From the IMG/VR virus record IMGVR_UViG_3300045988_175742: 50,880 nucleotides of DNA, one strand, 5' to 3'. The position numbers were made by a program, and so were the translations under genes. Source of the stretch: a virus. This document shows, in pieces, positions 7,983-50,880 of this stretch. The notes below the pieces were generated by a model. That model was given only the letters and a program-made list of their open reading frames with translations, did no database searches and was not told where the DNA came from. Within the stretch, counting starts at the first letter, position 1. Each line of letters starts with the position of its first letter.

Positions 7983-8008
7983 TATTAATTAAGGGAGTGT
8001 GCTTATGG

Positions 8009-8449: not shown

Positions 8450-8462
8450 AGGAGTGATTTAT

Positions 8463-8873: not shown

Positions 8874-8883
8874 GGTAATTCGA

Positions 8884-9642
8884 ATGAAGAATAGCTATGA
8901 TGAAACATTGTTATCAAAAAAATATATAGATATGTATGATTATAATTCTTTTTTTGAAGAGAATTTAGCATCTTTAAAACAACAAATTTCTGATGTTTCA
9001 GGTCCTTTGTTAAACGATTATGCCAAACAGTTAGTTGAAGCGTTTAATAATAATTTGGCTAGTTCCGATGATTTTAAACATTTTTCAAATGTGATTGATT
9101 CACTTAAAAAATCAAATATCTGTATTTCTTCTGAATATATATCTGAGATATCTAAATCATTCATATCAAATATTGATTTTTCTTCAATTAACGACTCGTT
9201 AAGCAAAAACATAGAAATAATTCGATCTATCCTCAATGCTGATGAAACTGATAAATCAAAAATTGATGATATTGATTTTAACATTCCATTTCCAAATGAT
9301 ATATCTGTTGCTGAAATGAAAGCCGAAATAAATGGCGAAGAATATAAAGAACCAAGAATAAAATATTTTATCCCACCTGTTTTATTTGAAATGATGTCTT
9401 TTATAAAAGATCCTGTAAAAGCAGCAGAAGTACTCAACCAATTTCTACTATTTGGAAATAAGTCAATGACAACCGAATTAAAGGCCATGATATACCAAAA
9501 AATCGGTGGGGAAATTGTATCCTTGATTATTAACGGTATGTTTGTCATAGCTTTTCGTCTTATATTGTTAATTCTTGGAATTTTTCTATATGATAATGTT
9601 ATTTATAAAAAATTTATTGAATACAAAAATAAATGTAAATAA
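8884..9642 (+). CDS. Hypothetical protein with C-terminal TM segments
   Basis: 252-aa ORF, GAGGTAA RBS; lies in the lysogeny-expressed block. Confidence 0.6.
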   Translation: MKNSYDETLLSKKYIDMYDYNSFFEENLASLKQQISDVSGPLLNDYAKQLVEAFNNNLASSDDFKHFSNVIDSLKKSNICISSEYISEISKSFISNIDFSSINDSLSKNIEIIRSILNADETDKSKIDDIDFNIPFPNDISVAEMKAEINGEEYKEPRIKYFIPPVLFEMMSFIKDPVKAAEVLNQFLLFGNKSMTTELKAMIYQKIGGEIVSLIINGMFVIAFRLILLILGIFLYDNVIYKKFIEYKNKCK

Positions 9643-9816
9643 CTAACTTTTATTTTCAATATTCATAATAGCAAATAAGACAAAGCATAAAATAATAACT
9701 GTCAAATTACTCGTTTTAATAGCTATATTGAGTAAACAAAAATATATTATAAAAAATTTGGTTTGCTTTCTAAAAATTTGAAGTAATGAAGAAAAAAATG
9801 ATGCAATTAATTTCAT
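9643..9816 (-). CDS. Small membrane protein (57 aa), tentative
   Basis: GGAAGGGTGG RBS; MKLIASFFSSLLQIF...; convergent with 8884..9642. Confidence 0.3.
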   Translation of the reverse strand: MKLIASFFSSLLQIFRKQTKFFIIYFCLLNIAIKTSNLTVIILCFVLFAIMNIENKS

Positions 9817-9903
9817 ACTTATACCACCCTTCCTTGATATAAGTATAGCTAATATATGGTATCAATTCAAATTATAAAAATATTAAGAAAAGAGGAAAAA
9901 CAA

Positions 9904-10359
9904 ATGAAAAAATTATTAAGTCTAGTATTAATTGGAGCTTTAGCTCTATCTCTAACTGCATGTGGAAATAGCGATCCAAAAGACAAAACAACATCTAAAG
10001 AAACAACTACAACAAAAAAAGAAGAAAAGAAAGAACCTTTAAATTTAACAGGGACTTGGAAATCAGATGAAAATGAGGGCACATGGATGGAAGCTACAAT
10101 TTCTGATAACGTTATTTCTATCGATTGGGTGACGGATGAAGGAAAAACAAAAGCAACTTATTGGGTTGGTTCATATGATGCTCCTACTACTGCCACTAGT
10201 GAATATTCATGGGTATCTAATAATGACCATGAAAAAACTAAAAATGCACTATTAGCTTCAAATGATGATACAAAAGAATTTACATATAAAAATGATATTC
10301 TTTCATTTACCGCTTCTATGCAAGGTGTCAGCAAAGTAGTTGAACTAAAGAAACAATAA
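9904..10359 (+). CDS. Lipoprotein (lipobox LTAC); candidate superinfection-exclusion protein
   Basis: MKKLLSLVLIGALALSLTAC-GNSD; sits between repressor and integrase like Ltp-type proteins. Confidence 0.7.
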   Translation: MKKLLSLVLIGALALSLTACGNSDPKDKTTSKETTTTKKEEKKEPLNLTGTWKSDENEGTWMEATISDNVISIDWVTDEGKTKATYWVGSYDAPTTATSEYSWVSNNDHEKTKNALLASNDDTKEFTYKNDILSFTASMQGVSKVVELKKQ

Positions 10360-10360
10360 T

Positions 10361-10552
10361 ATGAAAAATACCAACCACGATAAAAACCTAGATTACATTT
10401 ATGATAATCATCCTGAAATATTAGATGATTATATAGATGCCTATGAAAATTCAATATTAGCTGTTGATCATACTGTCAGTCCTGAAGATATGATTGATAT
10501 AACTGAAATGATTATAGCTTTTGAAAAAGAAAAAGCATTGAAGCTTAATTAA
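10361..10552 (+). CDS. Small acidic hypothetical protein
   Basis: 63-aa ORF 1 nt after the lipoprotein stop. Confidence 0.5.
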   Translation: MKNTNHDKNLDYIYDNHPEILDDYIDAYENSILAVDHTVSPEDMIDITEMIIAFEKEKALKLN

Positions 10553-10610
10553 ATATATTACGCCTGTTTATATCCATAGGCGTTTTATTATACGAAAGGA
10601 GACGTGATTT

Positions 10611-11783
10611 ATGTCAAAAGCAAGAAAAATCAAGAAAAAAGATGGTAAATATACATATGAAGTAAATGAAGTTGTTGGTAAAAATGAAAATGGAAATCCT
10701 AAAAGGATTTATGCTTATGGTGCTACTTTAAAAGAAGCAAAAGAAAATTTAAAAATCAAGCTTGATGCGTATAATCGAATGGGATATCAGAATCTTCAAA
10801 ATAAAATGACTGTAAATGAACTGTATGATTACTGGTTGAAAAATGAAGCAATAAACAAATCGTTAAAAGAAAATACAATGCATGGATATACAGGGGTTTA
10901 CAACAATCATATTAAGCCTTGTTTAGGCCATTTATATTTAAAAGATATAAATGTCATGGTGGTTCAAAACTTTATTACAGAAGCATCTGAACACCTAACT
11001 AAATACATTATGAAAAATGTTCATATCGTTTTAGGACAAATGCTTCGTTTAGCATTTGATCAAGGATTTATAGCTAATAATCCATATCTCTATATCAGGA
11101 AGAAAAAATATAAAAAAGATAAATGTTTAAATTATGAATTGCCAGATGAAGATACCTTGAGGCTAATCCCTACCCTATTCCATGAAACTGATCCAGAATA
11201 TATTTCTTTCTACATTGCACTCTATACCGGAGCAAGATGTTCTGAAATATTCGGTTTGACATGGGATGATGTTGATTTTGAAAAGCGCACATTAGATATC
11301 AATAAGCAAATAAGTGAAATTGGTGGTATTCATGAAATTGCAACAAAAACCCCTACATCGATTAGAAATATTAAAGTTTCTAATGATTTGATAGAAATGT
11401 TAAAAAAGTATAAGTCTAATTTGGATAAATTTGCCCTTCTCTACGGTAAAACATTTGGAGGGGGTAAATATGTATGTAGTGATTCAAAAGGTTATCTAAA
11501 GCGACCTAGCTACGTTAGAAGAAATATCCAAAAGAAGCTTAAACCATACAACAAGGAATTTAGATTTCATACATTGAGACACTTCTATGCAACTAAAGCA
11601 CTAGAAGCTGGAACAAATGTCAAAGCAGTATCAAGAAGACTTGGTCATGCCTCGGTTCAAGTAACCTTAGATAGATATGTAACATTCACTCCTGAAATGG
11701 ATGATGAAGCAGTAGATATTTTTGATGGTGTTATAAATGATTTCTTTTCAGAGAAAAAAACTCGAAAATCTACTCCGCAATAA
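10611..11783 (+). CDS. int: Tyrosine integrase
   Basis: 390 aa; ALYTGARCSEI (Arg), HTLRHFYAT (H-x-x-R), LGHASVQVTLDRYV (His...Tyr). Confidence 0.92.
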   Translation: MSKARKIKKKDGKYTYEVNEVVGKNENGNPKRIYAYGATLKEAKENLKIKLDAYNRMGYQNLQNKMTVNELYDYWLKNEAINKSLKENTMHGYTGVYNNHIKPCLGHLYLKDINVMVVQNFITEASEHLTKYIMKNVHIVLGQMLRLAFDQGFIANNPYLYIRKKKYKKDKCLNYELPDEDTLRLIPTLFHETDPEYISFYIALYTGARCSEIFGLTWDDVDFEKRTLDINKQISEIGGIHEIATKTPTSIRNIKVSNDLIEMLKKYKSNLDKFALLYGKTFGGGKYVCSDSKGYLKRPSYVRRNIQKKLKPYNKEFRFHTLRHFYATKALEAGTNVKAVSRRLGHASVQVTLDRYVTFTPEMDDEAVDIFDGVINDFFSEKKTRKSTPQ

Positions 11784-11800
11784 TAGCTAGTTACGCAAAC

Positions 11801-11811
11801 ATTCCGCAATT
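11801..11811. repeat. ATTCCGCAATT, inverted copy at 12065..12076; related TCCGCAAT/TCCGCATT at 11774 and 12048; candidate integrase-binding sites in attP
   Basis: Read directly in the int-proximal non-coding region. Confidence 0.45.
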
Positions 11812-11930
11812 TTATAATAAAACAGTATAAAAAGATATAAACAAATATGAAATAAAATGTATATGTGGAGAGTGATTTCTTCACATTTTTCTATTACAAT
11901 ATAAAATTATATAAAAAAGTATGTTTTAAC

Positions 11931-11965
11931 ATGCCCGATACGAAATCGAAAATCGGGCATTTTTA
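11931..11965 (+). terminator. Rho-independent terminator after int
   Basis: ATGCCCGAT-loop-ATCGGGCAT followed by TTTTT. Confidence 0.75.
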
Positions 11966-12064
11966 GTTTTCAATCTCTCAAAAATATTGATATTACTAGC
12001 TTTGTGTTTAATAATGGAGCTCATTTTTCACTTAATTACGCATATACTCCGCATTTTTATTTCA

Positions 12065-12076
12065 AATTGCGGAATT
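12065..12076. repeat. AATTGCGGAATT, reverse complement of 11801..11811
   Basis: Read directly. Confidence 0.45.
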
Positions 12077-12174
12077 AATAATATTTTTTCAGTCGTTTTA
12101 AAAAACATTTGGGTCGTTATTGATTTCATTTTTCACGAGTTAGTTGTAAGCTGATAAAGATCAGGAGGAGTTAT

Positions 12175-12510
12175 ATGGCACTTAATAATGTTTACAACTA
12201 TATTAGAAAATACATAGATAGGAATTTTAGTAAAAGATTAAATGTGTATGCAAATTATGAATGTGATGACATGATAGAAGAATGCGTAATGATGATAGAT
12301 TATTATGATCATGATTGTCCTGCATACGTCTATTACACAGAAATCAACAACATTATCATATTTAATGATTTTGATGTTGCATTATGTAATGCGTACCCAG
12401 CTCAATCTCATTTTTTTGAGACAACACTTGATAGAGTACTAGATATCTTAATAATGCAAGATACTTTGATTAATGATGATATTGAGGTACTGAATGAATT
12501 TATAAATTAA
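12175..12510 (+). CDS. Hypothetical cargo protein
   Basis: 111-aa ORF, AGGAGGAG RBS. Confidence 0.6.
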   Translation: MALNNVYNYIRKYIDRNFSKRLNVYANYECDDMIEECVMMIDYYDHDCPAYVYYTEINNIIIFNDFDVALCNAYPAQSHFFETTLDRVLDILIMQDTLINDDIEVLNEFIN

Positions 12511-12742
12511 AAAGTTCCCTAGTTAATAGGAGAACTTTTATTTTAAAAATGTTTGGCAAAACCAAATTATAAACATTACACATGAAACCATTCCTAAAAT
12601 GGTACAAGTTTTTAGAACAATTTTAAAAAATATTTTTTTAGCTCGTACCATTTTATACTGTTTCATATCGTGTTATTCCACAACTTTTATTGAAATAATC
12701 CCCTATATATAATAAGGATATAAAAATTTGAAAAAACACATA

Positions 12743-12783
12743 AAAAAAGAACCTACTCAAATCAATGAGTAGGTCTTTCTGTT
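12743..12783. terminator. Bidirectional-looking hairpin ACCTACTCA-aatcaa-TGAGTAGGT flanked by A- and T-runs
   Basis: 9-bp stem; same CCTACTC/GAGTAGG stem as the hairpin at 14643..14662. Confidence 0.55.
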
Positions 12784-12936
12784 TGGTTAATAAAATAAAG
12801 TTGTAGATTTTTTTGAAGAATAGATAATATTACATTTGCTTTTTCTGTTAACTAATTGAATGTGTATGTGAATTTGTGCATTTATGATGTCTATAATATA
12901 AAAAATAACGATAAACCGCTATTTTTATATTAACTT

Positions 12937-12952
12937 TAACGGTATACCGTTA
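12937..12952. promoter_or_regulatory. Perfect 16-bp palindrome TAACGGTATACCGTTA abutting a TATAAT box
   Basis: Read directly, about 50 bp upstream of ORF 13005. Confidence 0.5.
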
Positions 12953-13004
12953 TATAATATAAGTGTAATAAGAAAGGTAGTCCAAAGGACATAGGTAAAA
13001 GAAA

Positions 13005-13322
13005 ATGAACACACTAGAACAAAGAGCACATGACTTCGCAAATGAAATGGTACATAAATGTTTAAAAGAAGGAAGAAACGTATCAATTGGAATCACAAGA
13101 AAACAAGCAAACGTTGTCTTTGCTTGTAACAAACAAGGTAAAATTCATGTCAGCAAAGAAGTTATCTCTGCTGTTTACGATCTAGCTGATGTTTATTATA
13201 AAAAAAGTTTCTACAATCAAGCTGGTACTTACGTTGATAAAATAGTAACTGCTGTTCAAGCAATTTTCAACAATGAATATGAAATTGCTCAATATTTATT
13301 AGAAAGTGCTGTAGAAGATTAA
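13005..13322 (+). CDS. Hypothetical cargo protein
   Basis: 105-aa ORF. Confidence 0.6.
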   Translation: MNTLEQRAHDFANEMVHKCLKEGRNVSIGITRKQANVVFACNKQGKIHVSKEVISAVYDLADVYYKKSFYNQAGTYVDKIVTAVQAIFNNEYEIAQYLLESAVED

Positions 13323-13340
13323 AAAAAGAGGTGAAGAAAA

Positions 13341-13958
13341 ATGGAACATAATTATATTGAAGATTTACTTTTTTTTAAAAAAAATGCAGTTGAAAATATT
13401 ATTTCTACTGCAAATTGGGATATTGAAAACTACTTCGAAATGAAAGATGAAGCGGCAGAAGATGAAGATATCAATTTTGAAGAAAATGAAGATTGCGAAG
13501 AATACGGTCGAGATTATAGATTTGATGAAGGTGAAGTTGAAGATGCAATTAATTTTTTGTTTTATTATGAAGAATGTCTTCCTGATGATACTGATAAAGC
13601 AATAAATGACTATAGAAAATATGATGATCAACTTGCTGATGCTCAATCAAAATTAAGACATATTGAAAAGAAAATAAATATGTTAGTTAAAGATTTCAAT
13701 CTTGAAAATTATAGAATTGAAACTTCTAGAAAATCAATCAGCACATATCTATATATTCCATACACTCAAAGGAACATGGAAATGGTTATGAATGAAACTG
13801 ACGATGCCGATTACTATGAAGATATGGATGATGAAGAGCTAGAAGATTTAAAAGAATTATGTATCAGATTCAGCGATCACGACACTGGTTCTTACTGGGA
13901 TGAAGAGTGGGGTGACGTATCATATGATGATAGTTACGCAAAAATTGAAATCAATTAG
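13341..13958 (+). CDS. Very acidic (D/E-rich) hypothetical protein
   Basis: 205 aa, GAGGTGAAG RBS; long D/E runs. Confidence 0.65.
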   Translation: MEHNYIEDLLFFKKNAVENIISTANWDIENYFEMKDEAAEDEDINFEENEDCEEYGRDYRFDEGEVEDAINFLFYYEECLPDDTDKAINDYRKYDDQLADAQSKLRHIEKKINMLVKDFNLENYRIETSRKSISTYLYIPYTQRNMEMVMNETDDADYYEDMDDEELEDLKELCIRFSDHDTGSYWDEEWGDVSYDDSYAKIEIN

Positions 13959-13972
13959 AAAGGATGATAATA

Positions 13973-14179
13973 ATGAAACTATTGGATTTAACTGATAAAA
14001 CAATTGCTCAACTTGTTAGAGAAACAGGAATTTCTCGCTCAACTCTGGTGGATATTATTAAAGGCAATACAGAATTTAAAAGCACATCAGTGGAAAATGG
14101 AATGAAAATTTCTGAAGCTTTAAATCTAACTATAGAGGAATTATACAATAAAATTTATAATTTGAAGGAGGAAAAATAA
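13973..14179 (+). CDS. Small XRE-type HTH protein
   Basis: IAQLVRETGISRSTLVDIIKGN HTH; stop overlaps the next start (ATAATG). Confidence 0.7.
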   Translation: MKLLDLTDKTIAQLVRETGISRSTLVDIIKGNTEFKSTSVENGMKISEALNLTIEELYNKIYNLKEEK

Positions 14180-14634
14180 TGAACGGAATATTAGAATTTA
14201 TCAAAGAAGTATGTGAGGATCTATGTATCTCTATACCTGATAGTATAGTTACAGATGATAAAAAATTCAATCAAGGTACTCAACTAGCTACATTGGTTTA
14301 TGAAAATGAAAAATCAATTCTGTATTTAAGAACCAAATATGAATACGGTGATGTTGATATGGCATTTGCTATCGCGCATGAATTAAGACATAAATATCAA
14401 ATCGATACACATGTCTTTGATTTTGATAATTATAAAACTAGCGATAAGCTTTCTATAAGAGAGTATAATCTTCAAAGCGAAGAAGTAGATGCCAATGCTT
14501 ACGCATACATCGTTTTGCTAGATTTTTTCAAATTAAAAGTTGATTTCAAATTACTTTTAAAAGATGATGCTGTTGCTGATGTAATTATGAAACGTGTAGA
14601 TGTTATCATTGAAAACGAATACGAATATGAATAA
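14179..14634 (+). CDS. ImmA/IrrE-like metallopeptidase-domain protein (second copy)
   Basis: AIAHELRHKYQ (HExxH) and SEEVDANAYAYIVL. Confidence 0.6.
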   Translation: MNGILEFIKEVCEDLCISIPDSIVTDDKKFNQGTQLATLVYENEKSILYLRTKYEYGDVDMAFAIAHELRHKYQIDTHVFDFDNYKTSDKLSIREYNLQSEEVDANAYAYIVLLDFFKLKVDFKLLLKDDAVADVIMKRVDVIIENEYEYE

Positions 14635-43737: not shown

Positions 43738-44005
43738 CTTTCATCAACTCCTCTTTCCATTCTTCTTTAGATAGTCCACATTTTTTAGACATAATTCCAT
43801 AATGGCACCAAGCTTGATTAGAATGAAGCTCTTCACATGCTCTATCAAGTGCTTTTTCTAACTTTTCAATCTCTTGCTTATCTTCTGCAAGATAATCACA
43901 AATAGCATCAATATCTTCATACTTAATATGCTTAATTGCGTTATTATTATTTCCTTGCTTCATATGTTGCAACATAGATATTAATTGATTTCTAGTTTTA
44001 CTCAT
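43730..44005 (-). CDS. Hypothetical protein
   Basis: GGAGAG RBS before MSKTRNQ. Confidence 0.55.
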   Translation of the reverse strand: MSKTRNQLISMLQHMKQGNNNNAIKHIKYEDIDAICDYLAEDKQEIEKLEKALDRACEELHSNQAWCHYGIMSKKCGLSKEEWKEELMKDD

Positions 44006-44414
44006 CTTCAACTCTCCAATCAATCGTTTGTTCGCAAAAATGACAATATTTTTGTCTTTTTACTAATGGCGATTTACAAGAAGGACATGTTAATATTGTT
44101 CTTGTAATAGTTGTACCATTTACTGTAGATATACTATTTTCAAACGCTAGCAAAGGTCCTTTAGGTATAGCCTCTTCAATTGAATCCATTATTACTTTAC
44201 TTAATTGTTTCGTATCAAGTATAGGTTCTTGAGCGTTCATAACATTTGCGTTGCATGATTGACATTCTTTACATAGATCATCCGTTCTTAAATCCATCAA
44301 ATCATAACAAAATTTTCTATTATCATTTGGACCATATTCGTGAGTTGATATCCTTGCTTTGTAACAATCTTTATCTAGGGGCTTTCCCCTTAATTGAGCT
44401 CTTGATTTAGTCAT
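43998..44414 (-). CDS. Zn-ribbon-containing hypothetical protein
   Basis: CKECQSC and CPSCKS...CHFC pairs. Confidence 0.6.
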   Translation of the reverse strand: MTKSRAQLRGKPLDKDCYKARISTHEYGPNDNRKFCYDLMDLRTDDLCKECQSCNANVMNAQEPILDTKQLSKVIMDSIEEAIPKGPLLAFENSISTVNGTTITRTILTCPSCKSPLVKRQKYCHFCEQTIDWRVEDE

Positions 44415-44687
44415 CTAACCACCCCAATTCTTTAACTTGTTGGTTGATTGCTTTTAAAAGTTCCATATCAATTGCAGGTGGTGCATCATAACCGTACTCA
44501 TAATCTTCAGAATACTCATCACAATATACAGATGTTATTTTTTCTTCTTTATCAAACAAAACTACAAATGTATATAAGTATTCTTCTTCATATACGACTG
44601 GTTTTTTATAAATAAATCGATCTAATTCAAAATAATCAAATTTATTTTTTTAAATCCCATTAATTCAAACATTTTTTGTGCTGTCAT
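44407..44687 (-). CDS. Conserved small phage protein interrupted at an A7 tract (44645..44651); needs a -1 shift
   Basis: Frame 0: MTAQKMFELMGFKK then stop; -1 frame: NKFDYFELDRFIYKK...MELLKAINQQVKELGWLDD; TAATG coupling to the upstream gene. Confidence 0.55.
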
Positions 44688-44947
44688 TACAAAGCACCTC
44701 CTAAATCCAAACGAAGCCTAAAGCCTAAAACAACGTAACTCTCTTTGCAATATTCTTCATCATTTAAAATATAAACAATTTCTACATTTATAGATTTTCC
44801 TGTGAACTTACCATTTTCAAATTCTCTTAAAGTTATGATATCTCCAACCTCAAAATTCCGATCGTTTTTACGAACTTCAAATGTTTTAAGGCCACTAATA
44901 ACATCTTTAAAATATTGAGGTTTGATTTTTAATTCATGTGTTTTCAT
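44687..44947 (-). CDS. DUF3850 / ASCH-like domain protein
   Basis: HELKIKPQYFKDVISGLKTFEVRKNDRNFEVGDIITLREF. Confidence 0.8.
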   Translation of the reverse strand: MKTHELKIKPQYFKDVISGLKTFEVRKNDRNFEVGDIITLREFENGKFTGKSINVEIVYILNDEEYCKESYVVLGFRLRLDLGGAL

Positions 44948-44953
44948 AATTCC

Positions 44954-45325
44954 TTAACCTTTCTTAACGATATCTTTCAAATCATTTTTAAAATAACATT
45001 CCTTGCAAACTGCATATCCGAAACCGTATTTATCCAAAATAATTCTTGATGTATAAGAAGCTCCATATGTGATTTCTTTCCCACATTCGCAACAAGCAAT
45101 TTTCTTGTTCATATCATCCTCGTAATATGTAGCTCCATCAGGCAATGCATAATCTTCATATTGGCCGGTTTCCAAATCATATTTTCTAGCAAAAGCATGA
45201 TCCACTGCAGTATTTAATAAATCAAAATACTTTACAGCATCATCATGTGTCATATTCTTGTAATTTGCATCGAGGACAACAACACCACGCTCTTTACAAA
45301 GTTTTGACCATTCTTCACCTGTCAT
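44954..45325 (-). CDS. Zn-finger hypothetical protein
   Basis: CCECGK ... CKECYF. Confidence 0.6.
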   Translation of the reverse strand: MTGEEWSKLCKERGVVVLDANYKNMTHDDAVKYFDLLNTAVDHAFARKYDLETGQYEDYALPDGATYYEDDMNKKIACCECGKEITYGASYTSRIILDKYGFGYAVCKECYFKNDLKDIVKKG

Positions 45326-45540
45326 GAGTTATCACGTCCTGCAACTGGTTTATTACGCATAAAATCATCAAAATCCATATTACAATCCGAGCAGATTTCT
45401 GCTTTTTTTGTTACAAGCCCACAGCCGCCATCACTTTTCAATCCACCTGCTTGATATGAAATTTTATAATTAGTGACTTCTTTGGTTTTAAAAACTCTTT
45501 TACATCTATCACATTGAACAATTCCTCTATCTATTTTCAT
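45322..45540 (-). CDS. Zn-ribbon hypothetical protein
   Basis: CDRCKR ... CSDCN. Confidence 0.6.
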   Translation of the reverse strand: MKIDRGIVQCDRCKRVFKTKEVTNYKISYQAGGLKSDGGCGLVTKKAEICSDCNMDFDDFMRNKPVAGRDNS

Positions 45541-45728
45541 CAGTTTGCTTCCTCTCTTTTTTTCTTAATAATCATAGAAAGTCTTTCATTTCTTTCTTTG
45601 ATTCTTAAATTTTGCATTCTCAAACGATAATTTTCATTTTCCAGATACGCAATTTTTTTCTTGAGGGGCAAATAATTATCTTTACCCCATTCAAGAAGTA
45701 ATTTTCTTAATTCATCACACTTTGACAT
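45540..45728 (-). CDS. Small coiled-coil protein
   Basis: 62-aa ORF. Confidence 0.5.
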   Translation of the reverse strand: MSKCDELRKLLLEWGKDNYLPLKKKIAYLENENYRLRMQNLRIKERNERLSMIIKKKREEAN

Positions 45729-46332
45729 CTCTTAATTTCCTGTTCAATTTTCTTAAAAGTTTGTAAGGAAATGGATTTTCTTCTAAATATTCAAAATAGC
45801 TGACTGTTGTTGAAAATCCCTTTATTCCATCAAAATTGCTATGTGAGTAAGGTGTAGCAATGATTTTGTTCAAAGCACCTTCAATATCATCATCAACAAT
45901 CCTTTTATCAGCACTACCCATGCACATTGCATTTCCTGTCAACATGTTTGGCATTGCATATTCATACAATTCGGTATCTCCTACTTTGTATTTCTTATAG
46001 CAATAACATTGGATGCCTTTTACGATTTTGTTGTCATATCGAACAATATAAATAGCATTAGGAAAATTGATTTTGTATGAATGATTATTATAAGTAACAT
46101 ATTGCATATGCTCAGGCTGCTTTATAACGGTATAATCAATACCGGCACCTATCGTGTTTTCAGAAAACAATTTTATGTTCGCTTTCTCATGCTGATCTTT
46201 GATAAAAAAATCATTAAAAAGTTTTACCAGTTCTTCTTTTGAAAGCATTTTGAATGTAATCTTCTCGTTTTGTTTGATACATAATTCAGCATCATCTTTT
46301 TTGTTGTTTAAACGAATGATTGCTTCTCTCAT
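45715..46332 (-). CDS. E2/UBC-like protein (PRTRC protein B / Prok-E2-like)
   Basis: YAMPNMLTGNAMCMGS (PN-x7-Cys spacing as in HPN...C of E2s), PYSHSNF, FPYKLL; TAATG coupling to the upstream gene. Confidence 0.65.
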   Translation of the reverse strand: MREAIIRLNNKKDDAELCIKQNEKITFKMLSKEELVKLFNDFFIKDQHEKANIKLFSENTIGAGIDYTVIKQPEHMQYVTYNNHSYKINFPNAIYIVRYDNKIVKGIQCYCYKKYKVGDTELYEYAMPNMLTGNAMCMGSADKRIVDDDIEGALNKIIATPYSHSNFDGIKGFSTTVSYFEYLEENPFPYKLLRKLNRKLRDVKV

Positions 46333-47174
46333 TACATGATCACCTCGCTTTTTGTCTTTAATGTGTTTGAAAGAGCTGAAATCAAAGCATTTGAAGTAAA
46401 TTTATAATCACAATCATCTACTTTTCTTTCGACTATTATTTGCAACAATTCCGTATTATGTCTTTCTTTTTTTGAAACATTGGCCATGATTTCTAGAGCT
46501 TCATTTGCCACTCCAAAATTCAAATCAGGATATTCCCATCCTTCAATTTCAATGTTTCTTACGTTTCCTTTAACAAATTGACCATTTATAAATCGATATC
46601 CAAAACCATATAGCATTGCTCTTATTTGATAGCTCTTTTTATAAAGCTTTCTGAATTTCCTAGCTTTTCCCTTATTTTTGAATTTGATATACAGGAACTG
46701 TATTTCAGTGGTACCTAGATTGTAATAATCAACCTTAGGTTCGGATAATGTTTCATCCGAGTACTCACACCACTCTTTGGCTTCTGCATATATTTCTCTA
46801 AAGACACCTTTTAATTGTGGAATAATAAAACTTACATTTACAAACGTTTCATTCTGTTCATCATATAATCCTTCAATCAATGTTTCAAAACCATCAACTG
46901 CAAATTCGTTTCTGTCAAAAAAAGGACTTAATATAACTTCTTCAAATTCATAATCGATAACATCTGGAAAAACATGTTCATCTAATAAGTCAATTTCTTG
47001 AAAATTTTGTATCAAATCATCAGATTCATCTTCTTCAAATGCAATCGTTAAATCATCAATGGCTTTTGGCGATGTGTAACTTAAAGCGTTGATGAAAAAT
47101 TTTTCATAGGTGTTAGGTTCCAGTTTATCGGGTATATGATCAGTCGTAAAAAACTGTCTCAAATCTGTTGACAA
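46332..47174 (-). CDS. Hypothetical protein inside the Ubl/E1/E2 cluster
   Basis: 280 aa; no ATG near the start, so probable TTG start with GAAGGTG RBS (track ORF starts at 47183); acidic N-terminal half, no motif recognised. Confidence 0.6.
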   Translation of the reverse strand: MSTDLRQFFTTDHIPDKLEPNTYEKFFINALSYTSPKAIDDLTIAFEEDESDDLIQNFQEIDLLDEHVFPDVIDYEFEEVILSPFFDRNEFAVDGFETLIEGLYDEQNETFVNVSFIIPQLKGVFREIYAEAKEWCEYSDETLSEPKVDYYNLGTTEIQFLYIKFKNKGKARKFRKLYKKSYQIRAMLYGFGYRFINGQFVKGNVRNIEIEGWEYPDLNFGVANEALEIMANVSKKERHNTELLQIIVERKVDDCDYKFTSNALISALSNTLKTKSEVIM

Positions 47175-47820
47175 GTTGAACACCTTCTTTCAACTGATAC
47201 ATGATTAAAGCATTACAATGTTCCAATATCGATACAGCCATTTTTGCATTGGTTACTAGAAACTGAACATTTCCTTTGGCGGCCTGTTCTTGACAAGAAA
47301 CATCAAGCGGATGTTTATCCAAATCAAATTTGTAACATTGACTTCTCAAATTACTTTGTTGAATACCATTCTTTTTTGTTGTGATATAGATATTTCCTTC
47401 ATATTCACTATTTGCTGAGTCGATGTAAATAACATCATCTAGCTTCTTAAATACTTTTTCTAAAATCATTCTTGTAGCATCATTATCGACACATCCTATG
47501 ATTACAGGAACATACCCCTTATCGTCTTGGATGAGTGCAAATAAACTTTCATATGTGCAAAATTTATCATCAAACTCACATTCGATTGGATAAAGAGAGT
47601 TGATTTTTCTTGATAATGCTAAAGCCTTATTATCACCAACGTCTTGAGCTTGGTATCCTTGGCGTTCGATATTTTTAGATTCGACTGTATCACCATCTAG
47701 TAGCATCATTTTATGTGATGTTCCTAAAAGAAGTTTTGGGAGGTCTCTTGCTAGAAGAGAACCAGTCCCACCAACTCCAATCACATAGAATTTATATCTT
47801 GTATAAGCCATATCGAACAC
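47140..47820 (-). CDS. ThiF/E1-like adenylyltransferase (PRTRC ThiF-type)
   Basis: VIGVGGTGS, DGDTVESKNIERQ, DVGDNKA, GCVDNDATR, SCQEQ. Confidence 0.8.
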   Translation of the reverse strand: MFDMAYTRYKFYVIGVGGTGSLLARDLPKLLLGTSHKMMLLDGDTVESKNIERQGYQAQDVGDNKALALSRKINSLYPIECEFDDKFCTYESLFALIQDDKGYVPVIIGCVDNDATRMILEKVFKKLDDVIYIDSANSEYEGNIYITTKKNGIQQSNLRSQCYKFDLDKHPLDVSCQEQAAKGNVQFLVTNAKMAVSILEHCNALIMYQLKEGVQLVNRFETVFYD

Positions 47821-48318
47821 CTAGCCTTTTCTATGTTGTTTTCCAGTTACAACAAGAACGTTGTCATCCTCGATATAGCTGTATTCCATTGTTCCTGCAA
47901 ATTCATAATGACGGTGTTGTAACATGATGTCCGTGATTTCCTTTTCTGTATAATCTTGGCCATCCACAAATCCATAAGAAGAAACATCAATCAATCTTCC
48001 TTCAGAATAGACTCCAAACGGATATTTGTGAGTTTTTTCAGTACTTGCTTTTTTCTTAGGTACTTTTTTACCTGCAGGTTTTTCTTCTTTTTTAGATTCT
48101 TCTGCAATTTCAGTTGCTTGTTCTACTGCTTGTTTTACCTCCTCAATCGCTTGTTTTTCAGCTTTTGCAACTGGAGCAGGTTGTTGATCAGCTTCTTTTG
48201 GTGCTTCTTCAACCTTTTCCACTTCTTTGACAACTGTATCCTTTACATCTTCTTTAGCTGATTCCTCAGCTTTTTTCTTTGCTTCTTGTTCTTCTCTAAC
48301 TAAATCAAACAATCCCAT
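47821..48318 (-). CDS. K/E-rich protein with a C-terminal ubiquitin-like (Prok_Ub / PRTRC protein C-like) domain ending in Gly
   Basis: C-terminal about 70 aa PFGVYSEGRLIDV...TEKEITDIMLQH...NVLVVTGKQHRKG-stop; the E1 start abuts the stop. Confidence 0.55.
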   Translation of the reverse strand: MGLFDLVREEQEAKKKAEESAKEDVKDTVVKEVEKVEEAPKEADQQPAPVAKAEKQAIEEVKQAVEQATEIAEESKKEEKPAGKKVPKKKASTEKTHKYPFGVYSEGRLIDVSSYGFVDGQDYTEKEITDIMLQHRHYEFAGTMEYSYIEDDNVLVVTGKQHRKG

Positions 48319-48330
48319 AATTCTATCCTC

Positions 48331-48807
48331 CTATTTTGGCCTTCTTTCGCCAATTTCTTCTAGACATATTTTTAAACATTCATTTTCAGCAAATTCACGA
48401 ATGATAACCAGTTCACACACTTGAATATCATCGTAATATGCCACATTATTGAGTGCATCCAAAACTACTTTTATGATGTTATCGATATCCGGTTTAACGG
48501 TACATAGAAACGTTTTATCTAATAGCCAACCTCTTAATTTTTTGGTGGTTGATTTCGGTATTCCTCTATATGCAAATATCTTCACCCTCAACGCTTTATC
48601 ACTTTGATAACTTGTAGTTTTTCGATAGCACATTGCTATTTTTTGTTCGTAATCCCTTGTTTTTTTAGGTGTGTACGCTCTTACGAATTTTCCTTGCGTA
48701 GTAAATCTTGGTCTTCCCTTGCCAACTATCTTTCCTGGAACGGTAAACCAAAATTTCTTGTAATCATTTTTGATACCTAAATCAAGCAAGCATTGGGTCG
48801 AAGTCAT
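48331..48807 (-). CDS. rusA: RusA-family Holliday junction resolvase
   Basis: GKGRPRF...AYTPKKT...KPDIDNIIKVVLDALNNVAYYDDIQV. Confidence 0.88.
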   Translation of the reverse strand: MTSTQCLLDLGIKNDYKKFWFTVPGKIVGKGRPRFTTQGKFVRAYTPKKTRDYEQKIAMCYRKTTSYQSDKALRVKIFAYRGIPKSTTKKLRGWLLDKTFLCTVKPDIDNIIKVVLDALNNVAYYDDIQVCELVIIREFAENECLKICLEEIGERRPK

Positions 48808-49591
48808 CTTCTAACTCCTCTGGAACAACAGCATCTTCAAGAAGTGCATCCAATTGTTCCTCTTCTTGATAATCATCTTCTACTGTCTCATCTTCAATTT
48901 CTTCAACATCTTCATTTTCGAATTCATCATAGTTTGTAGGCTGTTGTACAAGCTCCATTTCTTGTTGGTCACAAGCACTTTTCTTAGGGTCATCTTTGAT
49001 ATTGAAGTAAATTGTCATTGTGATGGTTGTTTGACCACCATTTAGCTCAGTTTGATCACACGCTGCCAAATAATATGGGTTCCAATCACCAGCTAATGTA
49101 ATAAATTCATTGTCACGTTCTGCATCCAACATATAGATATCAGGAAATCCTATCTTGTCCAAAATCTTGTTATCTTCTTCAGAAATCCATCTTTGTGTCA
49201 CTTCAACGATTTTTGGAATCTTGTAAGGATCACCTTTATCAACAGAAAAAACCTTTTTCGACATGTAACCCGCATGCTTGAAGAAATTTCTAACTGCAAT
49301 CAAATATGATTCTTGACAGCTGAAATGTTCAGCTTTCGCCAATTTCATATCTCCGTTAGGTAATTGTGATAGTTCATAAGGGATTTTTCCAAACTCTCTT
49401 AATTCATCATCTAAAAGCAAATTACTTTGAAAGTCATAAACTGCAGCATAGTTGTTACATACTAAATAGAGCTTTTCATCATCACCATAAAATACTGGTG
49501 TGTAAGTCTTGTTTTTTCCGATGATTTCTTTCGCAATTGAAAGAAATTTGTAGAAAAACGGTTCTTCATCCTTTTTTATTAGCATTTTCAT
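48782..49591 (-). CDS. Hypothetical replication-module protein with acidic tail ...EELEDDFDPMLA
   Basis: 269-aa ORF between ssb and rusA. Confidence 0.6.
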   Translation of the reverse strand: MKMLIKKDEEPFFYKFLSIAKEIIGKNKTYTPVFYGDDEKLYLVCNNYAAVYDFQSNLLLDDELREFGKIPYELSQLPNGDMKLAKAEHFSCQESYLIAVRNFFKHAGYMSKKVFSVDKGDPYKIPKIVEVTQRWISEEDNKILDKIGFPDIYMLDAERDNEFITLAGDWNPYYLAACDQTELNGGQTTITMTIYFNIKDDPKKSACDQQEMELVQQPTNYDEFENEDVEEIEDETVEDDYQEEEQLDALLEDAVVPEELEDDFDPMLA

Positions 49592-49727
49592 CTCTCCTTT
49601 TTGTTTGATTTATTGTTTTTGCGGTCAAATCTTCATCCTAACGAATATTTTTAGATAATTGGTAAAGTTAATCATCTTTAAAACAAACACTCGCTAGAAA
49701 CGAAAATTTTAAGTTTTTTATTTTAGA

Positions 49728-50192
49728 CTAGAATTGAATGTCATCTTCCATAATGTTGAAAGATGGATTTTCATTCATGAAACTGTCTTGTTGCTGATTT
49801 TGTGTTGGTTGTTGGTACTGATTTGGATTGTATGTTGATTGTGAATGATATTGTTGTTCTTCATATTTGTCCTTAGATTTTGTTTCTAAGAACTGAACTG
49901 AATCACAAACAACTTCAGTAACATAGACACGTTGACCTTGAGCGTTGTCATAAGATCTTGAGCGAAGTCTTCCTTCAACTCCAACCAATGAACCTTTGGA
50001 ACAGTACTTGTCGACGTTTTCAGCGACCTTATTCCAAACAACACATGAAATATAATCAGCTTGTTGTTCTTCATCATTTCTCTTTGGACGGTTCATTGCT
50101 AAAGTGAAACTTGCAACTGCTGAACCGTTTTGAGTTCTTCTAAGTTCAGGATCACGTGTCATCCTACCAACTAAAACTACTCTGTTTATCAT
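49728..50192 (-). CDS. ssb: Single-stranded DNA-binding protein
   Basis: MINRVVLVGRMTRDPELR...VVWNKVAENV...GSLVGVEGRLRSRSY; Q-rich linker; acidic tip EDDIQF. Confidence 0.95.
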   Translation of the reverse strand: MINRVVLVGRMTRDPELRRTQNGSAVASFTLAMNRPKRNDEEQQADYISCVVWNKVAENVDKYCSKGSLVGVEGRLRSRSYDNAQGQRVYVTEVVCDSVQFLETKSKDKYEEQQYHSQSTYNPNQYQQPTQNQQQDSFMNENPSFNIMEDDIQF

Positions 50193-50234
50193 ATCTTCTA
50201 CTTCCCTTGTTATTTTGATTTTGAAGTTTTTGCT

Positions 50235-50678
50235 CTAATCTTGCCTTTGCTTTCCCCTGTATGTAAGAACTCCAGCATTGCGTTTTCTAACATGTTCTTC
50301 ATGTAAGATCTTGATTGATTCTTTATCGTAATTGCATTCCTGAAACTTTTTGGAATATTCTTTAGCATCTTGTGAGTTTAAAAATCTAAATGGAAAGTTT
50401 CCATAAGTTTCATCTTCAAACTGAATAATTACTGTGTTGGGCGGAATCTTTTCAATTGTGTATTCAGGAACTTCAATGTTAGAAACGATTTCAGCAAGAT
50501 TAGGAATATATCTGTTAGACTTTGAAAATTTAACAATTGCATTTTGAACTTGTTCATAAGAGAAATCTCCAAACATCATCATCCATGTTTCAATGGTATC
50601 TTTCGATTCAATGATTTTGGAATTTGGATAAATGTTTTTGTAAAATTTCAAAATCTTTTTAATTTCCGTTTTTTCCAA
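50235..50678 (-). CDS. G39P-like replicative helicase loader
   Basis: EIKKILKFYKNIYPN...ETWMMMFGDFSYEQVQNAIVKFSKSNRYIPNLAEIV; probable TTG start after GAAAGGAA (track ORF extends to 50777). Confidence 0.65.
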   Translation of the reverse strand: MEKTEIKKILKFYKNIYPNSKIIESKDTIETWMMMFGDFSYEQVQNAIVKFSKSNRYIPNLAEIVSNIEVPEYTIEKIPPNTVIIQFEDETYGNFPFRFLNSQDAKEYSKKFQECNYDKESIKILHEEHVRKRNAGVLTYRGKQRQD

Positions 50679-50762
50679 AATTTCTAAATTCCTTTCAAAA
50701 TGTTGTGTGCCTACTATATATAGCAATCTGCAATGTCGTATGCGAAGGATTGTTATTTGTGA

Positions 50763-50772
50763 GTGTGCACAC
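50763..50772. repeat. 10-bp palindrome GTGTGCACAC
   Basis: Read directly in the putative origin region. Confidence 0.6.
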
Positions 50773-50779
50773 ACCACTC

Positions 50780-50824
50780 TTGTTTTATCTTGTTTTTTCT
50801 TGTTTATTTTGTTTATATTGTTTA
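50780..50824. repeat. Five helically phased TTGTTT(T/A) repeats (starts 50780, 50790, 50800, 50809, 50818)
   Basis: Read directly; 9-10-bp period. Confidence 0.75.
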
Positions 50825-50825
50825 T

Positions 50826-50880
50826 ATATAGAAAGGGGTGTAGGAATTTTTCCTATACCGTATGGGAATTTTTCCTATAC
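50826..50880. repeat. Terminal overlap, identical to 1..55
   Basis: See feature 1..55. Confidence 0.95.

What the first reader, a model, noticed from the sequence alone, without database searches (positions are those of the whole stretch)
45715..48318. Phage-encoded ubiquitin-like / E1-like / E2-like cluster in the early replication-recombination operon
Four tightly coupled minus-strand genes. (1) 47821..48318 has a lysine/glutamate-rich, low-complexity N-terminus of about 95 aa. Its C-terminal part of about 70 aa matches the PRTRC protein C / Prok_Ub pattern as I recall it (strand-strand, helix TEKEITDIMLQH, then ...VVTGKQHRKG) and ends in Gly directly before the stop codon. (2) 47140..47820 is a ThiF/E1-like adenylyltransferase (VIGVGGTGS, DGDTVESKNIERQ, GCVDNDATR, SCQEQ), and its start abuts the Ubl stop. 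(3) 46332..47174 is an unrecognisable protein of about 280 aa. (4) 45715..46332 carries YAMPNMLTGNAMCMGS. The PN-to-Cys spacing equals that of the HPN...C active site of E2/UBC enzymes, and PYSHSNF and FPYKLL follow. I found no JAB deubiquitinase-type H-x-H...S-x-x-D motif in any ORF of the window. PRTRC-type cassettes were predicted computationally on plasmids and conjugative elements. To my knowledge their function is not established and they are not a described functional module of phage early operons. Here the cassette sits between rusA and a run of Zn-ribbon/ASCH genes, so it would be expressed early in infection. It could conjugate the Ubl to phage or host targets, for example to counter Ubl-based or other host immunity or to regulate replication. 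The K-rich N-terminus of the Ubl protein itself is a possible acceptor in cis.
Basis: partly seen in the sequence, partly recalled or inferred. Interest (0 to 1): 0.9.

Follow-up and report, generated by a model that had tools for sequence, protein, structure and literature searches.

The report
Phage-encoded ubiquitin-like conjugation gene cassette
A temperate gut-bacterium phage carries, among its replication and recombination genes, a compact four-gene set that looks like a stripped-down ubiquitin-type protein-tagging machine, related to a cassette predicted on plasmids in 2006 whose function has never been tested.

Summary
The four translationally coupled minus-strand genes exist exactly as described. 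The 226-aa protein is a sound ThiF/E1 adenylyltransferase. The 205-aa protein belongs to a family in which 34 of 37 members hit Pfam Prok-E2_D (PRTRC protein B). P128, N129, C137 and H164 are invariant, the Cys plus downstream His signature that Iyer et al. (2006) described for their "6d" operon.

The 165-aa protein matches no Ubl HMM and has no significant Foldseek match. Comparative genomics still supports a Ubl. All 78 phage homologues end in KG-stop directly before the E1 start. All six distant relatives with residues after that Gly have a PRTRC-A-like JAB peptidase next to it or fused to it.

The 283-aa middle protein remains unknown.

The cassette is a JAB-less, ParB-less variant of the PRTRC/6d system. 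It was kept in all 80 retained loci out of 228 viral contigs that encode an E1 relative, from Erysipelotrichaceae gut phages. It most likely adenylates the terminal Gly and passes the Ubl through E1 and E2 cysteines to an unknown target. The UBC fold of the E2-like protein was not confirmed structurally.

Verdict: new variant of a known but uncharacterised kind.

The parts
47821..48318 (-). Ubl-like modifier gene (165 aa). It has an N-terminal short motif, an E/K/A-rich linker and a C-terminal domain of about 69 aa that ends in Gly165 followed by TAG.
   Evidence: ORF. 386 homologues. All 78 viral homologues end in KG-stop. Profile search of the domain against 1.84 billion proteins. No Pfam or NCBIfam Ubl hit.
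48295..48318 (-). Conserved N-terminal short linear motif (MGLFDLVR; family consensus [DNGS]-L-[FW]-[DEG]-[LM]-[LVI]).
   Evidence: [LIM][FW][DEGSQ] occurs in residues 1-25 of 59 of 120 non-redundant homologues and in 0 of 120 in residues 26-50. Shuffles give a mean of 7.6 and a maximum of 15. The pattern was defined after seeing the data.
47824..48030 (-). C-terminal Ubl-like domain (residues 97-165). Gly165 is the codon GGC at 47824-47826, the predicted site of adenylation.
   Evidence: AF2 pLDDT 82.4 with a strand-strand-strand, strand, helix, strand-strand order and a low-confidence tail. Foldseek is not significant; the top hits are protein G/L B1 domains. JAB fusion or adjacency in relatives whose Ubl carries a tail. 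Codon check.
47140..47820 (-). E1-like ThiF-family adenylyltransferase (226 aa). It has no rhodanese domain and no CxxC zinc motifs. The invariant Cys176 (codon 47293-47295) is a candidate thioester site.
   Evidence: PF00899 at 5.2e-18. TIGR03736 PRTRC_ThiF at 7e-16, below its cut-off. Invariant G15/G17/G20, D44, N50, Q54, K65, D112, R117 and C176 are shared with the pMOL28 and BgVeeders33 PRTRC ThiF proteins.
46332..47183 (-). Fast-diverging middle protein of unknown fold (283 aa from GTG; a probable TTG start at 47174). It has a conserved N-terminal D-L-R-x-Y/F-F/I-T motif and a conserved C-terminal E-V-I-[MLF]-stop.
   Evidence: Kept at this position in every locus that has both E1 and E2. 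No Pfam or NCBIfam hit, and no hhalign similarity to PRTRC F or A. The distant L093 homologue ends in GGEEVLF-stop.
45715..46332 (-). E2-like protein of the Prok-E2_D / PRTRC-B family (205 aa). Invariant P128-N129, Cys137 (codon 45922-45924), Gly139 and His164 (codon 45841-45843).
   Evidence: Window protein against PF14460: 19.5 bits, E=8e-4, below the gathering score of 25. 34 of 37 family members hit PF14460, best 3.4e-11. hhalign against pMOL28 PRTRC B: E=1.6e-5, probability 79%. Invariant columns. AF2 pLDDT 89.7, but no significant PDB match. Significant BFVD matches to uncharacterised phage proteins.

Best explanation
This is a minimal, JAB-less and ParB-less derivative of the PRTRC cassette, the "6d" operon type of Iyer, Burroughs and Aravind (2006). 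It is carried as a fixed four-gene module in the delayed-early replication-recombination region of temperate phages of Erysipelotrichaceae from the human gut.

Proposed mechanism:
1. The 165-aa protein is made already mature, ending in Gly165, so no processing peptidase is needed.
2. The E1-like ThiF protein adenylates that Gly. It probably then holds the Ubl as a thioester on its invariant Cys176.
3. The Ubl passes to Cys137 of the E2-like protein. The invariant His164 stands in for the missing His of the classical HPN motif.
4. The Ubl is then attached to an amino group of a target that is still unknown.
5. The fast-evolving middle protein is most likely a specificity or adaptor (E3-like) factor, or the substrate itself.
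6. The conserved N-terminal L-F-D-L-L-type motif, joined to the Ubl domain by a flexible linker, is most likely a docking peptide. It would bring the modifier to a partner.

Shown here: gene structure, family relationships, conserved residues, synteny, and the link between a C-terminal tail and a JAB gene.
Inferred: adenylation, both thioesters, conjugation, the target, early expression and any biological role.
For: - E1: PF00899 at 5e-18. PRTRC_ThiF is the top NCBIfam hit for the window protein (7e-16, only marginally ahead of biosynthetic ThiF) and clearly the top hit for a distant relative (1.8e-20 against 9.5e-13 for biosynthetic ThiF). ATP-binding and catalytic residues and Cys176 are invariant across phage and canonical PRTRC ThiF proteins.
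- E2: 34 of 37 family members hit Prok-E2_D. The family profile aligns to pMOL28 PRTRC B over 154 columns, including the Cys motif and the downstream His. P128, N129, C137, G139 and H164 are invariant. This matches the published signature: no HPN His, a conserved Cys, and an absolutely conserved downstream His (PMC1779556).
- Ubl: KG-stop in 78 of 78 viral loci, with the stop codon abutting the E1 start. Only 57 representative clusters in 1.84 billion proteins match the domain, and in the 42 with E<=1e-10 it ends at the protein's C-terminus. All six distant members with residues after the KG have a JAB: fused in P0331 and P0340, and as the adjacent gene for P0334, P0335, P0336 and P0339. That JAB's best NCBIfam hit is PRTRC_A at 3.3e-6.
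- ParB lies upstream of the Ubl in L092 and directly upstream in L155.
- The AF2 model of the domain has a beta-hairpin, helix, beta-hairpin order with a flexible tail.
- Module behaviour: the same four-gene order in all 80 viral loci. All 45 RusA-related loci with room downstream carry the cassette.
- No thiS/thiG/moaD-type or sulfurtransferase genes were found nearby.
Against: - The Ubl domain matches no Prok_Ub or PRTRC_C model. hhalign against a canonical PRTRC C is null. Foldseek gives no significant PDB hit; the best is E=0.039 with TM about 0.3.
- A confident E2 model finds no solved UBC structure; the best is E=0.19 with TM 0.13. hhalign against human UBE2D2 is not significant. The window protein itself scores below the Pfam gathering threshold.
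- The middle protein shows no similarity to the PRTRC alpha-helical protein F.
- The PRTRC/6d class has no biochemical characterisation in the literature I could search, so the chemistry is inferred twice over.
- The terminus is a single Gly (K-G), not the G-G of ubiquitin.
Confidence: 0.68

Rival explanations
1. Sulfur-carrier or biosynthetic system. The E1 adenylates the terminal Gly so that the small protein becomes a thiocarboxylate, as ThiS, MoaD and TtuB do. That sulfur would be used for a cofactor, or for a nucleic-acid or nucleotide modification useful to the phage. No protein conjugation would occur.
For: E1 scores almost as well against biosynthetic ThiF models as against PRTRC_ThiF (55.8 against 58.3 bits). 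The Ubl ends in a single Gly. No target and no E3 are known. The UBC fold was not confirmed.
Against: E1 has no rhodanese domain. No cysteine desulfurase, ThiG/ThiH, MoaE or sulfurtransferase gene lies in the cassette or next to it in the window or in the related loci examined. A Cys/His protein of the Prok-E2_D family is always co-encoded. Relatives carry JAB peptidases and ParB, as PRTRC does.
Confidence: 0.1
2. The cassette does activate the small protein, but the 205-aa protein is not an E2. Its invariant Cys137/His164 pair would serve another thiol enzyme, for example a peptidase or transamidase that acts on the adenylated or conjugated Ubl. It could be a functional replacement for the missing JAB. 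The chemistry would then be E2-independent, as in Urm1 or Pup-like routes.
For: A model with pLDDT 89.7 has no significant similarity to any solved E2. A Cys with a downstream His is also the catalytic pair of papain-like enzymes (own knowledge). The phage cassettes lack JAB. The E2 assignment of Prok-E2_D rests on published remote profile analysis only.
Against: The model matched no papain-like or transglutaminase fold either. The secondary-structure order is helix, beta-meander, Cys loop, two helices, which is the order of UBC (PMC1779556). The P-N-x7-C register equals HPN...C. JAB-containing relatives keep the same protein, so it does not replace JAB.
Confidence: 0.12
3. A plasmid-type maintenance or partition accessory. 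As the name PRTRC (ParB-related, ThiF-related cassette) suggests, the module would support segregation or establishment of an extrachromosomal element. In these integrating phages it would be an inherited remnant with little role in infection.
For: Canonical PRTRC is linked to ParB on plasmids and ICEs. Distant relatives of this cassette have ParB upstream of the Ubl. The 2026 Burkholderia phage paper calls it a ThiF-partitioning cassette. Related cassettes lie on Clostridium and Butyrivibrio plasmids.
Against: No ParB gene was found among the window ORFs that were scanned, and the phage has an integrase, a cI-like repressor and ImmA. The cassette is strictly retained with intact ORFs and conserved catalytic residues in all 80 loci examined, out of 228 viral contigs with an E1 relative. 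That argues for selection in the phage itself. The partition role of PRTRC is itself untested.
Confidence: 0.1

Closest known systems
PRTRC system, the "6d" operon of Iyer, Burroughs and Aravind 2006 (for example pMOL28: ParB, E, C, F, B, A, ThiF)
   Same: - An E1 of the same ThiF subgroup, with shared invariant residues including Cys176.
- An E2-like protein of Pfam Prok-E2_D with a conserved Cys and downstream His.
- A small modifier with a conserved terminal Gly.
- A rapidly diverging extra protein inside the operon.
- Residence on mobile elements.
- Distant relatives of the phage cassette still carry a PRTRC-A-like JAB and ParB.
   Different: - No JAB (protein A), ParB, protein E or recognisable protein F.
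- The Ubl is made mature (KG-stop), whereas pMOL28 C carries a 5-residue tail after KG.
- The Ubl domain is not recognised by the Prok_Ub or PRTRC_C models.
- The Ubl domain is fused to an N-terminal docking-type motif and a disordered linker.
- Gene order is Ubl, E1, X, E2 rather than C, F, B, A, ThiF.
- The host element is an integrating phage of Bacillota, not a proteobacterial plasmid or ICE.
Canonical PRTRC cassettes in Burkholderia gladioli phages AB2 and BgVeeders33 (PMC13366799, 2026)
   Same: A phage-borne Ubl/E1/E2_D set. Its function has also not been studied.
   Different: Those cassettes are full canonical PRTRC with ParB, A, B, C, E and F. The BgVeeders33 C protein hits TIGR03738 at 3.7e-31. 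They are only about 26% identical to the window at E1 level. The authors interpreted them as a partition module.
Bil (types I and II), Bub and CBASS Cap2/Cap3 bacterial ubiquitination-like systems
   Same: The logic of E1 adenylation, E2 thioester and conjugation. Some of their Ubls also carry disordered or coiled-coil N-terminal extensions (PMC11601603). The window E1 hits CBASS E1-E2 models in PADLOC at up to 2.6e-11.
   Different: Those are host defence or stress operons, and their E2 proteins belong to other families. The window E2 and Ubl hit no PADLOC model. [quoted passage not shown] This cassette is phage-encoded and lies in an early operon.
ThiF-ThiS and MoeB-MoaD sulfur-carrier pairs
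   Same: The adenylation domain, and a small partner that ends in Gly.
   Different: No sulfur-transfer or cofactor genes are present. An E2-like Cys/His protein is always present. The setting is a mobile element.
Lambda/T1 tail assembly protein I (a Ubl) with the TAPK JAB peptidase
   Same: A phage-encoded Ubl-type domain with a conserved terminal Gly, functionally tied to a JAB (PMC1779556).
   Different: That pair lies in the tail module and has no E1 or E2. Here the genes lie in the replication-recombination module and come with E1 and E2.

Membership tests
PRTRC / Iyer 2006 type 6d operon | An E1-like ThiF protein without a rhodanese domain, of the PRTRC_ThiF type | tested here: inconclusive
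   PF00899 at 5e-18. TIGR03736 is the best NCBIfam hit, but 58 bits is far below the cut-off of 145 and only marginally above biosynthetic ThiF. Invariant residues, including C176, are shared with canonical PRTRC ThiF. There is no rhodanese domain: the protein is 226 aa.
PRTRC / Iyer 2006 type 6d operon | An E2-like protein (Prok-E2_D / PRTRC B) with a conserved Cys, no HPN His, and an absolutely conserved downstream His | tested here: met
   C137 and H164 are invariant, and the motif is M-P-N rather than H-P-N. 34 of 37 family members hit PF14460, best 3.4e-11. hhalign against pMOL28 B gives E=1.6e-5. The window protein alone is below the gathering score: 19.5 against 25 bits.
PRTRC / Iyer 2006 type 6d operon | A small Ubl (Prok_Ub / PRTRC C) with a conserved C-terminal Gly | tested here: inconclusive
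   The terminal Gly is invariant. JAB is adjacent or fused wherever a tail follows the Gly. But there is no hit to PF14454 or TIGR03738, and hhalign against pMOL28 C gives probability 0.2%.
PRTRC / Iyer 2006 type 6d operon | A JAB peptidase (PRTRC A) encoded in the operon | tested here: not met
   No H-x-H...S-x-x-D motif in any window ORF of 60 aa or more. There is no gene between the Ubl and E1 in the 78 viral loci. A JAB is present only in distant relatives.
PRTRC / Iyer 2006 type 6d operon | A rapidly diverging alpha-helical protein (PRTRC F, Pfam alpha-hel2) | tested here: not met
   A fast-diverging protein does occupy the operon. It has no PF14456 hit, and hhalign against pMOL28 F gives probability 0.3%.
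PRTRC / Iyer 2006 type 6d operon | Linked ParB-family protein and protein E | tested here: not met
   Neither was found among the window ORFs scanned. ParB is present only in the distant relatives L092 and L155.
E2/UBC superfamily (structural) | A UBC fold detectably similar to solved E2 structures | tested here: not met
   AF2 model with pLDDT 89.7. The best Foldseek PDB hit has E=0.19 and TM 0.13, and no E2 is among the top 50 listed matches. A profile search against PDB sequences gave nothing. hhalign against UBE2D2 gave probability 0.16%. The order of secondary-structure elements is compatible with UBC, but that is not a test.
Beta-grasp ubiquitin-like fold | A beta-grasp fold with a flexible C-terminal tail ending in Gly | tested here: inconclusive
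   AF2 pLDDT 82.4. The element order is strands, helix, two strands, and the last 5 residues have low confidence. The top Foldseek hits are protein G/L B1 domains, which SCOP places in the beta-grasp fold class (own knowledge). Their E-values are 0.04-0.3 and TM scores 0.25-0.36, which is not significant.
Bil / Bub / CBASS type II defence systems | E2, Ubl or DUB components that match the curated defence-system models | tested here: not met
   In PADLOC only E1 hits, and it hits the generic CBASS E1-E2 models. The Ubl has no hit, and the E2-like and middle proteins hit no Bil, Bub or CBASS model (E2 had only a weak unrelated hit, E=0.03).
ThiS/MoaD sulfur-carrier pathway | Co-encoded sulfur-transfer or cofactor-synthesis enzymes | tested here: not met
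   None in the window region 44000-50880 or in related loci.

The most novel reading that the evidence does not exclude
The phage uses its own ubiquitin-like tagging system on the host replisome. The conserved N-terminal motif of the modifier has the consensus x-[DN]-L-F-D-L-L, and reads Q-L-N-L-F, Q-M-N-L-F, Q-S-T-L-F and Q-N-G-L-F in four distant members. That resembles the bacterial beta-sliding-clamp-binding motif QL[SD]LF (resemblance from my own knowledge, not tested). It would tether the Ubl through its flexible linker to DnaN or to a clamp-bound protein. E1 and E2 would then attach the Ubl covalently, giving a bacterial-virus counterpart of PCNA ubiquitination or SUMOylation. The purpose would be to redirect replication or recombination, or to disarm a host defence. 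More generally, this would be the first Ubl conjugation system used by a phage against its host, rather than by a host against phages.
Probability: 0.12. Interest if true: 0.9.

Novelty: new variant of a known kind. Interest (0 to 1): 0.62.

Why it matters
Every bacterial ubiquitin-like conjugation system with a demonstrated role so far (CBASS Cap2/3, Bil, 6A-MBL) is a host anti-phage system. The role of Bub is still unknown. The PRTRC/6d class has been known only as a prediction since 2006.

Here a stripped-down version of that class is a fixed part of the early gene set of a common group of human-gut temperate phages. The search found 228 viral contigs with an E1 relative. One Ubl variant is recorded on at least 1000 contigs.

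The cassette has only four small genes, needs no processing protease, and has clear candidate catalytic residues: Gly165, E1 Cys176, and E2 Cys137 and His164. That makes it a convenient system for settling what PRTRC-type cassettes do. It would also show whether phages, like eukaryotic viruses, use Ubl conjugation to take over or disarm their hosts.

Tried and rejected
- Megablast of the cassette against 50,697 GenBank phage records: no match. There is no cultured close relative.
- Pfam, NCBIfam, PHROGs and PADLOC scans of the Ubl and the middle protein: only low-complexity or noise hits.
- hhalign of the Ubl family against pMOL28 PRTRC C, and of the middle-protein family against PRTRC F and A: null.
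- Per-member Pfam scan of 16 diverse middle proteins: no recurrent family.
- Foldseek of both AF2 models against the PDB: nothing significant. I do not use the PCNA hits at TM 0.13; they are meaningless.
- Profile of the E2 family against PDB sequences: nothing. hhalign against human UBE2D2: not significant.
- The idea that the 165-aa protein is a fusion of PRTRC E and C. No PF19556 hit was found, and only a vague likeness of the N-termini, so I kept it as a remark only.
I rejected it as a family feature because distant members have acidic, lysine-poor linkers.
- A test for circular permutation of the window through an ORF spanning the two ends: none found. Continuity of the early operon across the window ends is therefore inferred from synteny with L001 only.
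- A literature search for experimental work on PRTRC, Prok-E2_D or phage-encoded E1/E2: none found.
- The Burroughs et al. 2011 paper that defined the Pfam families is not in the held library.

Full report
**1. Observation**

The four minus-strand ORFs are real:
- 47821-48318, 165 aa
- 47140-47820, 226 aa
- 46332-47183, 283 aa, with an alternative TTG start at 47174
- 45715-46332, 205 aa

The genes are translationally coupled. The Ubl ends GGC (Gly165) TAG and is followed directly by the GTG of the next gene. E1 and the third gene overlap. The third gene and the fourth share TAATG.

The flanking genes are RusA, SSB, a G39P-like loader and an ASCH/DUF3850 protein. Elsewhere the window encodes RecT, DUF1351, a cI-like repressor, an ImmA/IrrE peptidase, an integrase, small and large terminase subunits, a tape-measure-like protein and an amidase endolysin. 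It is therefore a temperate tailed phage or prophage with about 32% G+C. No JAB-type H-x-H...S-x-x-D motif occurs in any ORF of 60 aa or more.

**2. The enzymes**

*E1.* The 226-aa protein is a ThiF-family adenylyltransferase (PF00899, 5e-18). Its best NCBIfam model is PRTRC_ThiF, but the score is below the cut-off and barely above biosynthetic ThiF. I aligned it with the ThiF proteins of two canonical PRTRC cassettes (pMOL28, Burkholderia phage BgVeeders33) and of other relatives. The GxGxxG loop, D44, N50, Q54, K65, D112, R117 and a single Cys (C176) are invariant. There are no CxxC zinc motifs and no rhodanese domain.

*E2-like protein.* On its own the 205-aa protein scores below threshold against Prok-E2_D (19.5 bits, E=8e-4) and PRTRC_B (E=0.006). 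Its family is clear, however:
- 48 homologues were found, and 34 of the 37 full-length members I aligned hit PF14460, with a best E-value of 3.4e-11.
- The family profile aligns to pMOL28 PRTRC B over 154 columns (E=1.6e-5, probability 79%). The segment MPNxLxxNxMCIGxA lies over PPYFNTWDHGRICIGSA, and PYSH lies over FTHP.
- P128, N129, C137, G139 and H164 are invariant.

Iyer et al. (2006) described this same signature for the E2-like protein of their operon type 6d: no His in the HPN position, a conserved Cys, and an absolutely conserved downstream His (PMC1779556).

The structural test failed. A confident AF2 model (pLDDT 89.7) has no significant Foldseek match in the PDB. hhalign against human UBE2D2 is not significant, although the only aligned segment is the P-N...C loop in the same register. 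In BFVD the model matches uncharacterised proteins of other phages. One of them is from Acinetobacter phage ME3, which also encodes a ThiF.

**3. The modifier**

The C-terminal 69 residues of the 165-aa protein hit no Ubl model. hhalign against pMOL28 PRTRC C is null. The AF2 model (pLDDT 82.4) has a hairpin, helix, hairpin order with a floppy five-residue tail. Foldseek returns only non-significant matches, led by protein G/L B1 domains. On those tests alone the Ubl claim would fail.

Comparative genomics supports it:
- (a) In 78 of 78 viral loci the protein ends in K-G-stop, directly before the E1 start.
- (b) A profile of the domain, searched against 1.84 billion representative proteins, finds only 57 clusters. 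In the 42 with E<=1e-10 the domain ends at the C-terminus of the protein.
- (c) The exceptions are informative. In P0331 and P0340 the domain ends ...KG and is fused to a JAB domain (HSHH...S-x-TD). In P0335 (KGGGDRA), P0339 (KGCRRD), P0334 (KGA) and P0336 (KGG plus a Cys-rich tail) a JAB gene of about 133 aa lies directly between the Ubl and ThiF genes.
- (d) That JAB's best NCBIfam hit is PRTRC_A (3.3e-6). Its neighbouring ThiF is clearly of the PRTRC_ThiF type (1.8e-20). Two of these loci have ParB upstream of the Ubl, directly upstream in L155.

So a processing peptidase is present in 6 of 6 cases where residues follow the Gly, and in 0 of 78 where they do not. That is the behaviour expected of a modifier whose free terminal Gly is its working end.

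**4. The other parts**

*Middle protein.* It is always present but evolves fast, falling to 13-16% identity within the family. It keeps an N-terminal D-L-R-x-Y-F/I-T motif and a C-terminal E-V-I-[MLF]-stop, and the distant high-G+C relatives keep both too. It matches no Pfam family, nor PRTRC F or A. [quoted passage not shown] Homology is not shown, and I could not predict its structure.

*N-terminus of the modifier.* It carries a conserved short motif (MGLFDLV in the window; consensus [DN]-L-F-D-L-L). The pattern occurs in residues 1-25 of 59 of 120 non-redundant homologues, in none in residues 26-50, and in 7.6 on average after shuffling (the pattern was defined after inspection). The linker behind it varies in length. 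It is K/E-rich only in the Erysipelotrichaceae phages.

**5. Distribution**

No cultured phage is close. IMG/VR holds 228 contigs that encode an E1 relative. All 80 retained loci keep the order Ubl, E1, X, E2. All 45 RusA-related loci with enough sequence downstream carry the cassette.

Named hosts are Erysipelotrichaceae-type gut bacteria: Faecalibacillus, Coprobacillus, Allocoprobacillus, Thomasclavelia, Longicatena, Dielma, Amedibacillus and Massilimicrobiota. In an Allocoprobacillus prophage the cassette lies between G39P and RusA, downstream of YqaJ, DUF1351 and RecT and upstream of the terminase.

Related but different E1/E2_D sets occur elsewhere:
- Clostridium and Butyrivibrio plasmids
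- Bacillus jumbo phages, which have an E2-like, a JAB and a ThiF protein
- Burkholderia phages, which have a full canonical PRTRC

**6. Mechanism and its status**

The best-supported reading is an E1-to-E2 relay that attaches the Gly165 carboxylate of the modifier to an unknown target. The middle protein would act as adaptor or substrate. The N-terminal motif would act as a docking peptide.

Only the sequence-level facts are shown. Adenylation, the thioesters, conjugation, timing of expression and biological role are all inferred. The cassette lies in the replication/recombination (nin-like) region, and the wider family is associated with ParB on plasmids and ICEs. Both point to a function at establishment or early takeover. 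Whether that is counter-defence, control of replication, or maintenance cannot be decided here.

**7. Novelty**

The kind is known. It was predicted in 2006 and named PRTRC in TIGRFAMs. I found no experimental study of it in the literature I could search. [quoted passage not shown] That paper reports the canonical form in Burkholderia phages.

New here:
- a four-gene form without JAB or ParB
- a modifier domain that current Ubl models do not recognise
- the N-terminal docking-type motif
- the correlation between a C-terminal tail and a JAB gene
- the status of the cassette as a fixed part of an abundant gut-phage lineage

I rate this a new variant of a known kind. Interest is moderate to high, because it offers a small, tractable system for a question that has been open for two decades.

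Noticed in passing
window 48295-48318 (residues 1-8 of the 165-aa protein): Conserved N-terminal short motif (MGLFDLV; family consensus [DN]-L-F-D-L-L). It is present in 59 of 120 non-redundant homologues in residues 1-25 and in none in residues 26-50. Four distant members read Q-x-x-L-F, which resembles the bacterial beta-clamp-binding motif (resemblance from my own knowledge, untested).
   Followed up: partly
window 46332-46346 and about 47150-47174 (the two ends of the 283-aa protein): The otherwise very divergent middle protein keeps a C-terminal E-V-I-[MLF]-stop tail and an N-terminal D-L-R-x-Y/F-F/I-T motif, even in high-G+C relatives (L093 ends GGEEVLF). The meaning of these motifs is unknown.
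   Followed up: partly
window 45322-45540 (-): A 72-aa Zn-ribbon protein two genes downstream of the cassette has sub-threshold Pfam hits to zf_UBZ, a ubiquitin-binding zinc finger (E=0.02), and to the Thoeris inhibitor Tad3 (E=0.022). Neither is significant.
   Followed up: no
L004 3372-4106: In a related MAG contig, the same early region upstream of the cassette encodes a metallo-beta-lactamase protein with a weak Anti-Pycsar Apyc1 hit. This suggests that counter-defence genes share this region.
   Followed up: no
L089 (Bacillus phage Edson) 1241-4325: This jumbo Bacillus phage encodes, all annotated as hypothetical: an E2_D-like protein (LYRMPFSNCDNSYICWG), a 459-aa protein with a JAB motif (HSHNTMGAFWSGTD) and a 285-aa ThiF. 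No Ubl was identified.
   Followed up: partly
L008 (Clostridium perfringens linear plasmid) 3821-5696: A cassette in a different order: an E2_D-like protein (24 bits against PF14460), then a 127-aa protein with a charged N-terminus that ends in KFFNKG-stop, then ThiF. It shows that the charged-linker-plus-Ubl architecture also exists outside Erysipelotrichaceae phages.
   Followed up: partly
window 7536-14634 (+): A lysogeny module on the opposite strand: a cI-like HTH, an ImmA/IrrE peptidase, a small SHOCT/membrane protein and an integrase. It also holds six ORFs of 105-252 aa with no Pfam hit, lying on both sides of the integrase between the SHOCT protein and the endolysin. These are possible prophage cargo.
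   Followed up: no
window 48782-49591 (-): A 269-aa protein between SSB and RusA has a strongly acidic C-terminal third (DEFENEDVEEIEDE...) and no family match.
   Followed up: no
L092 4832-5266 and L093 3924-4358: The distant JAB-containing cassettes are accompanied by a conserved protein of about 144 aa, rich in Cys and His (C..C...H...H, HNH-like by eye). It lies before the Ubl in L092 and after the E2 in L093.
   Followed up: no
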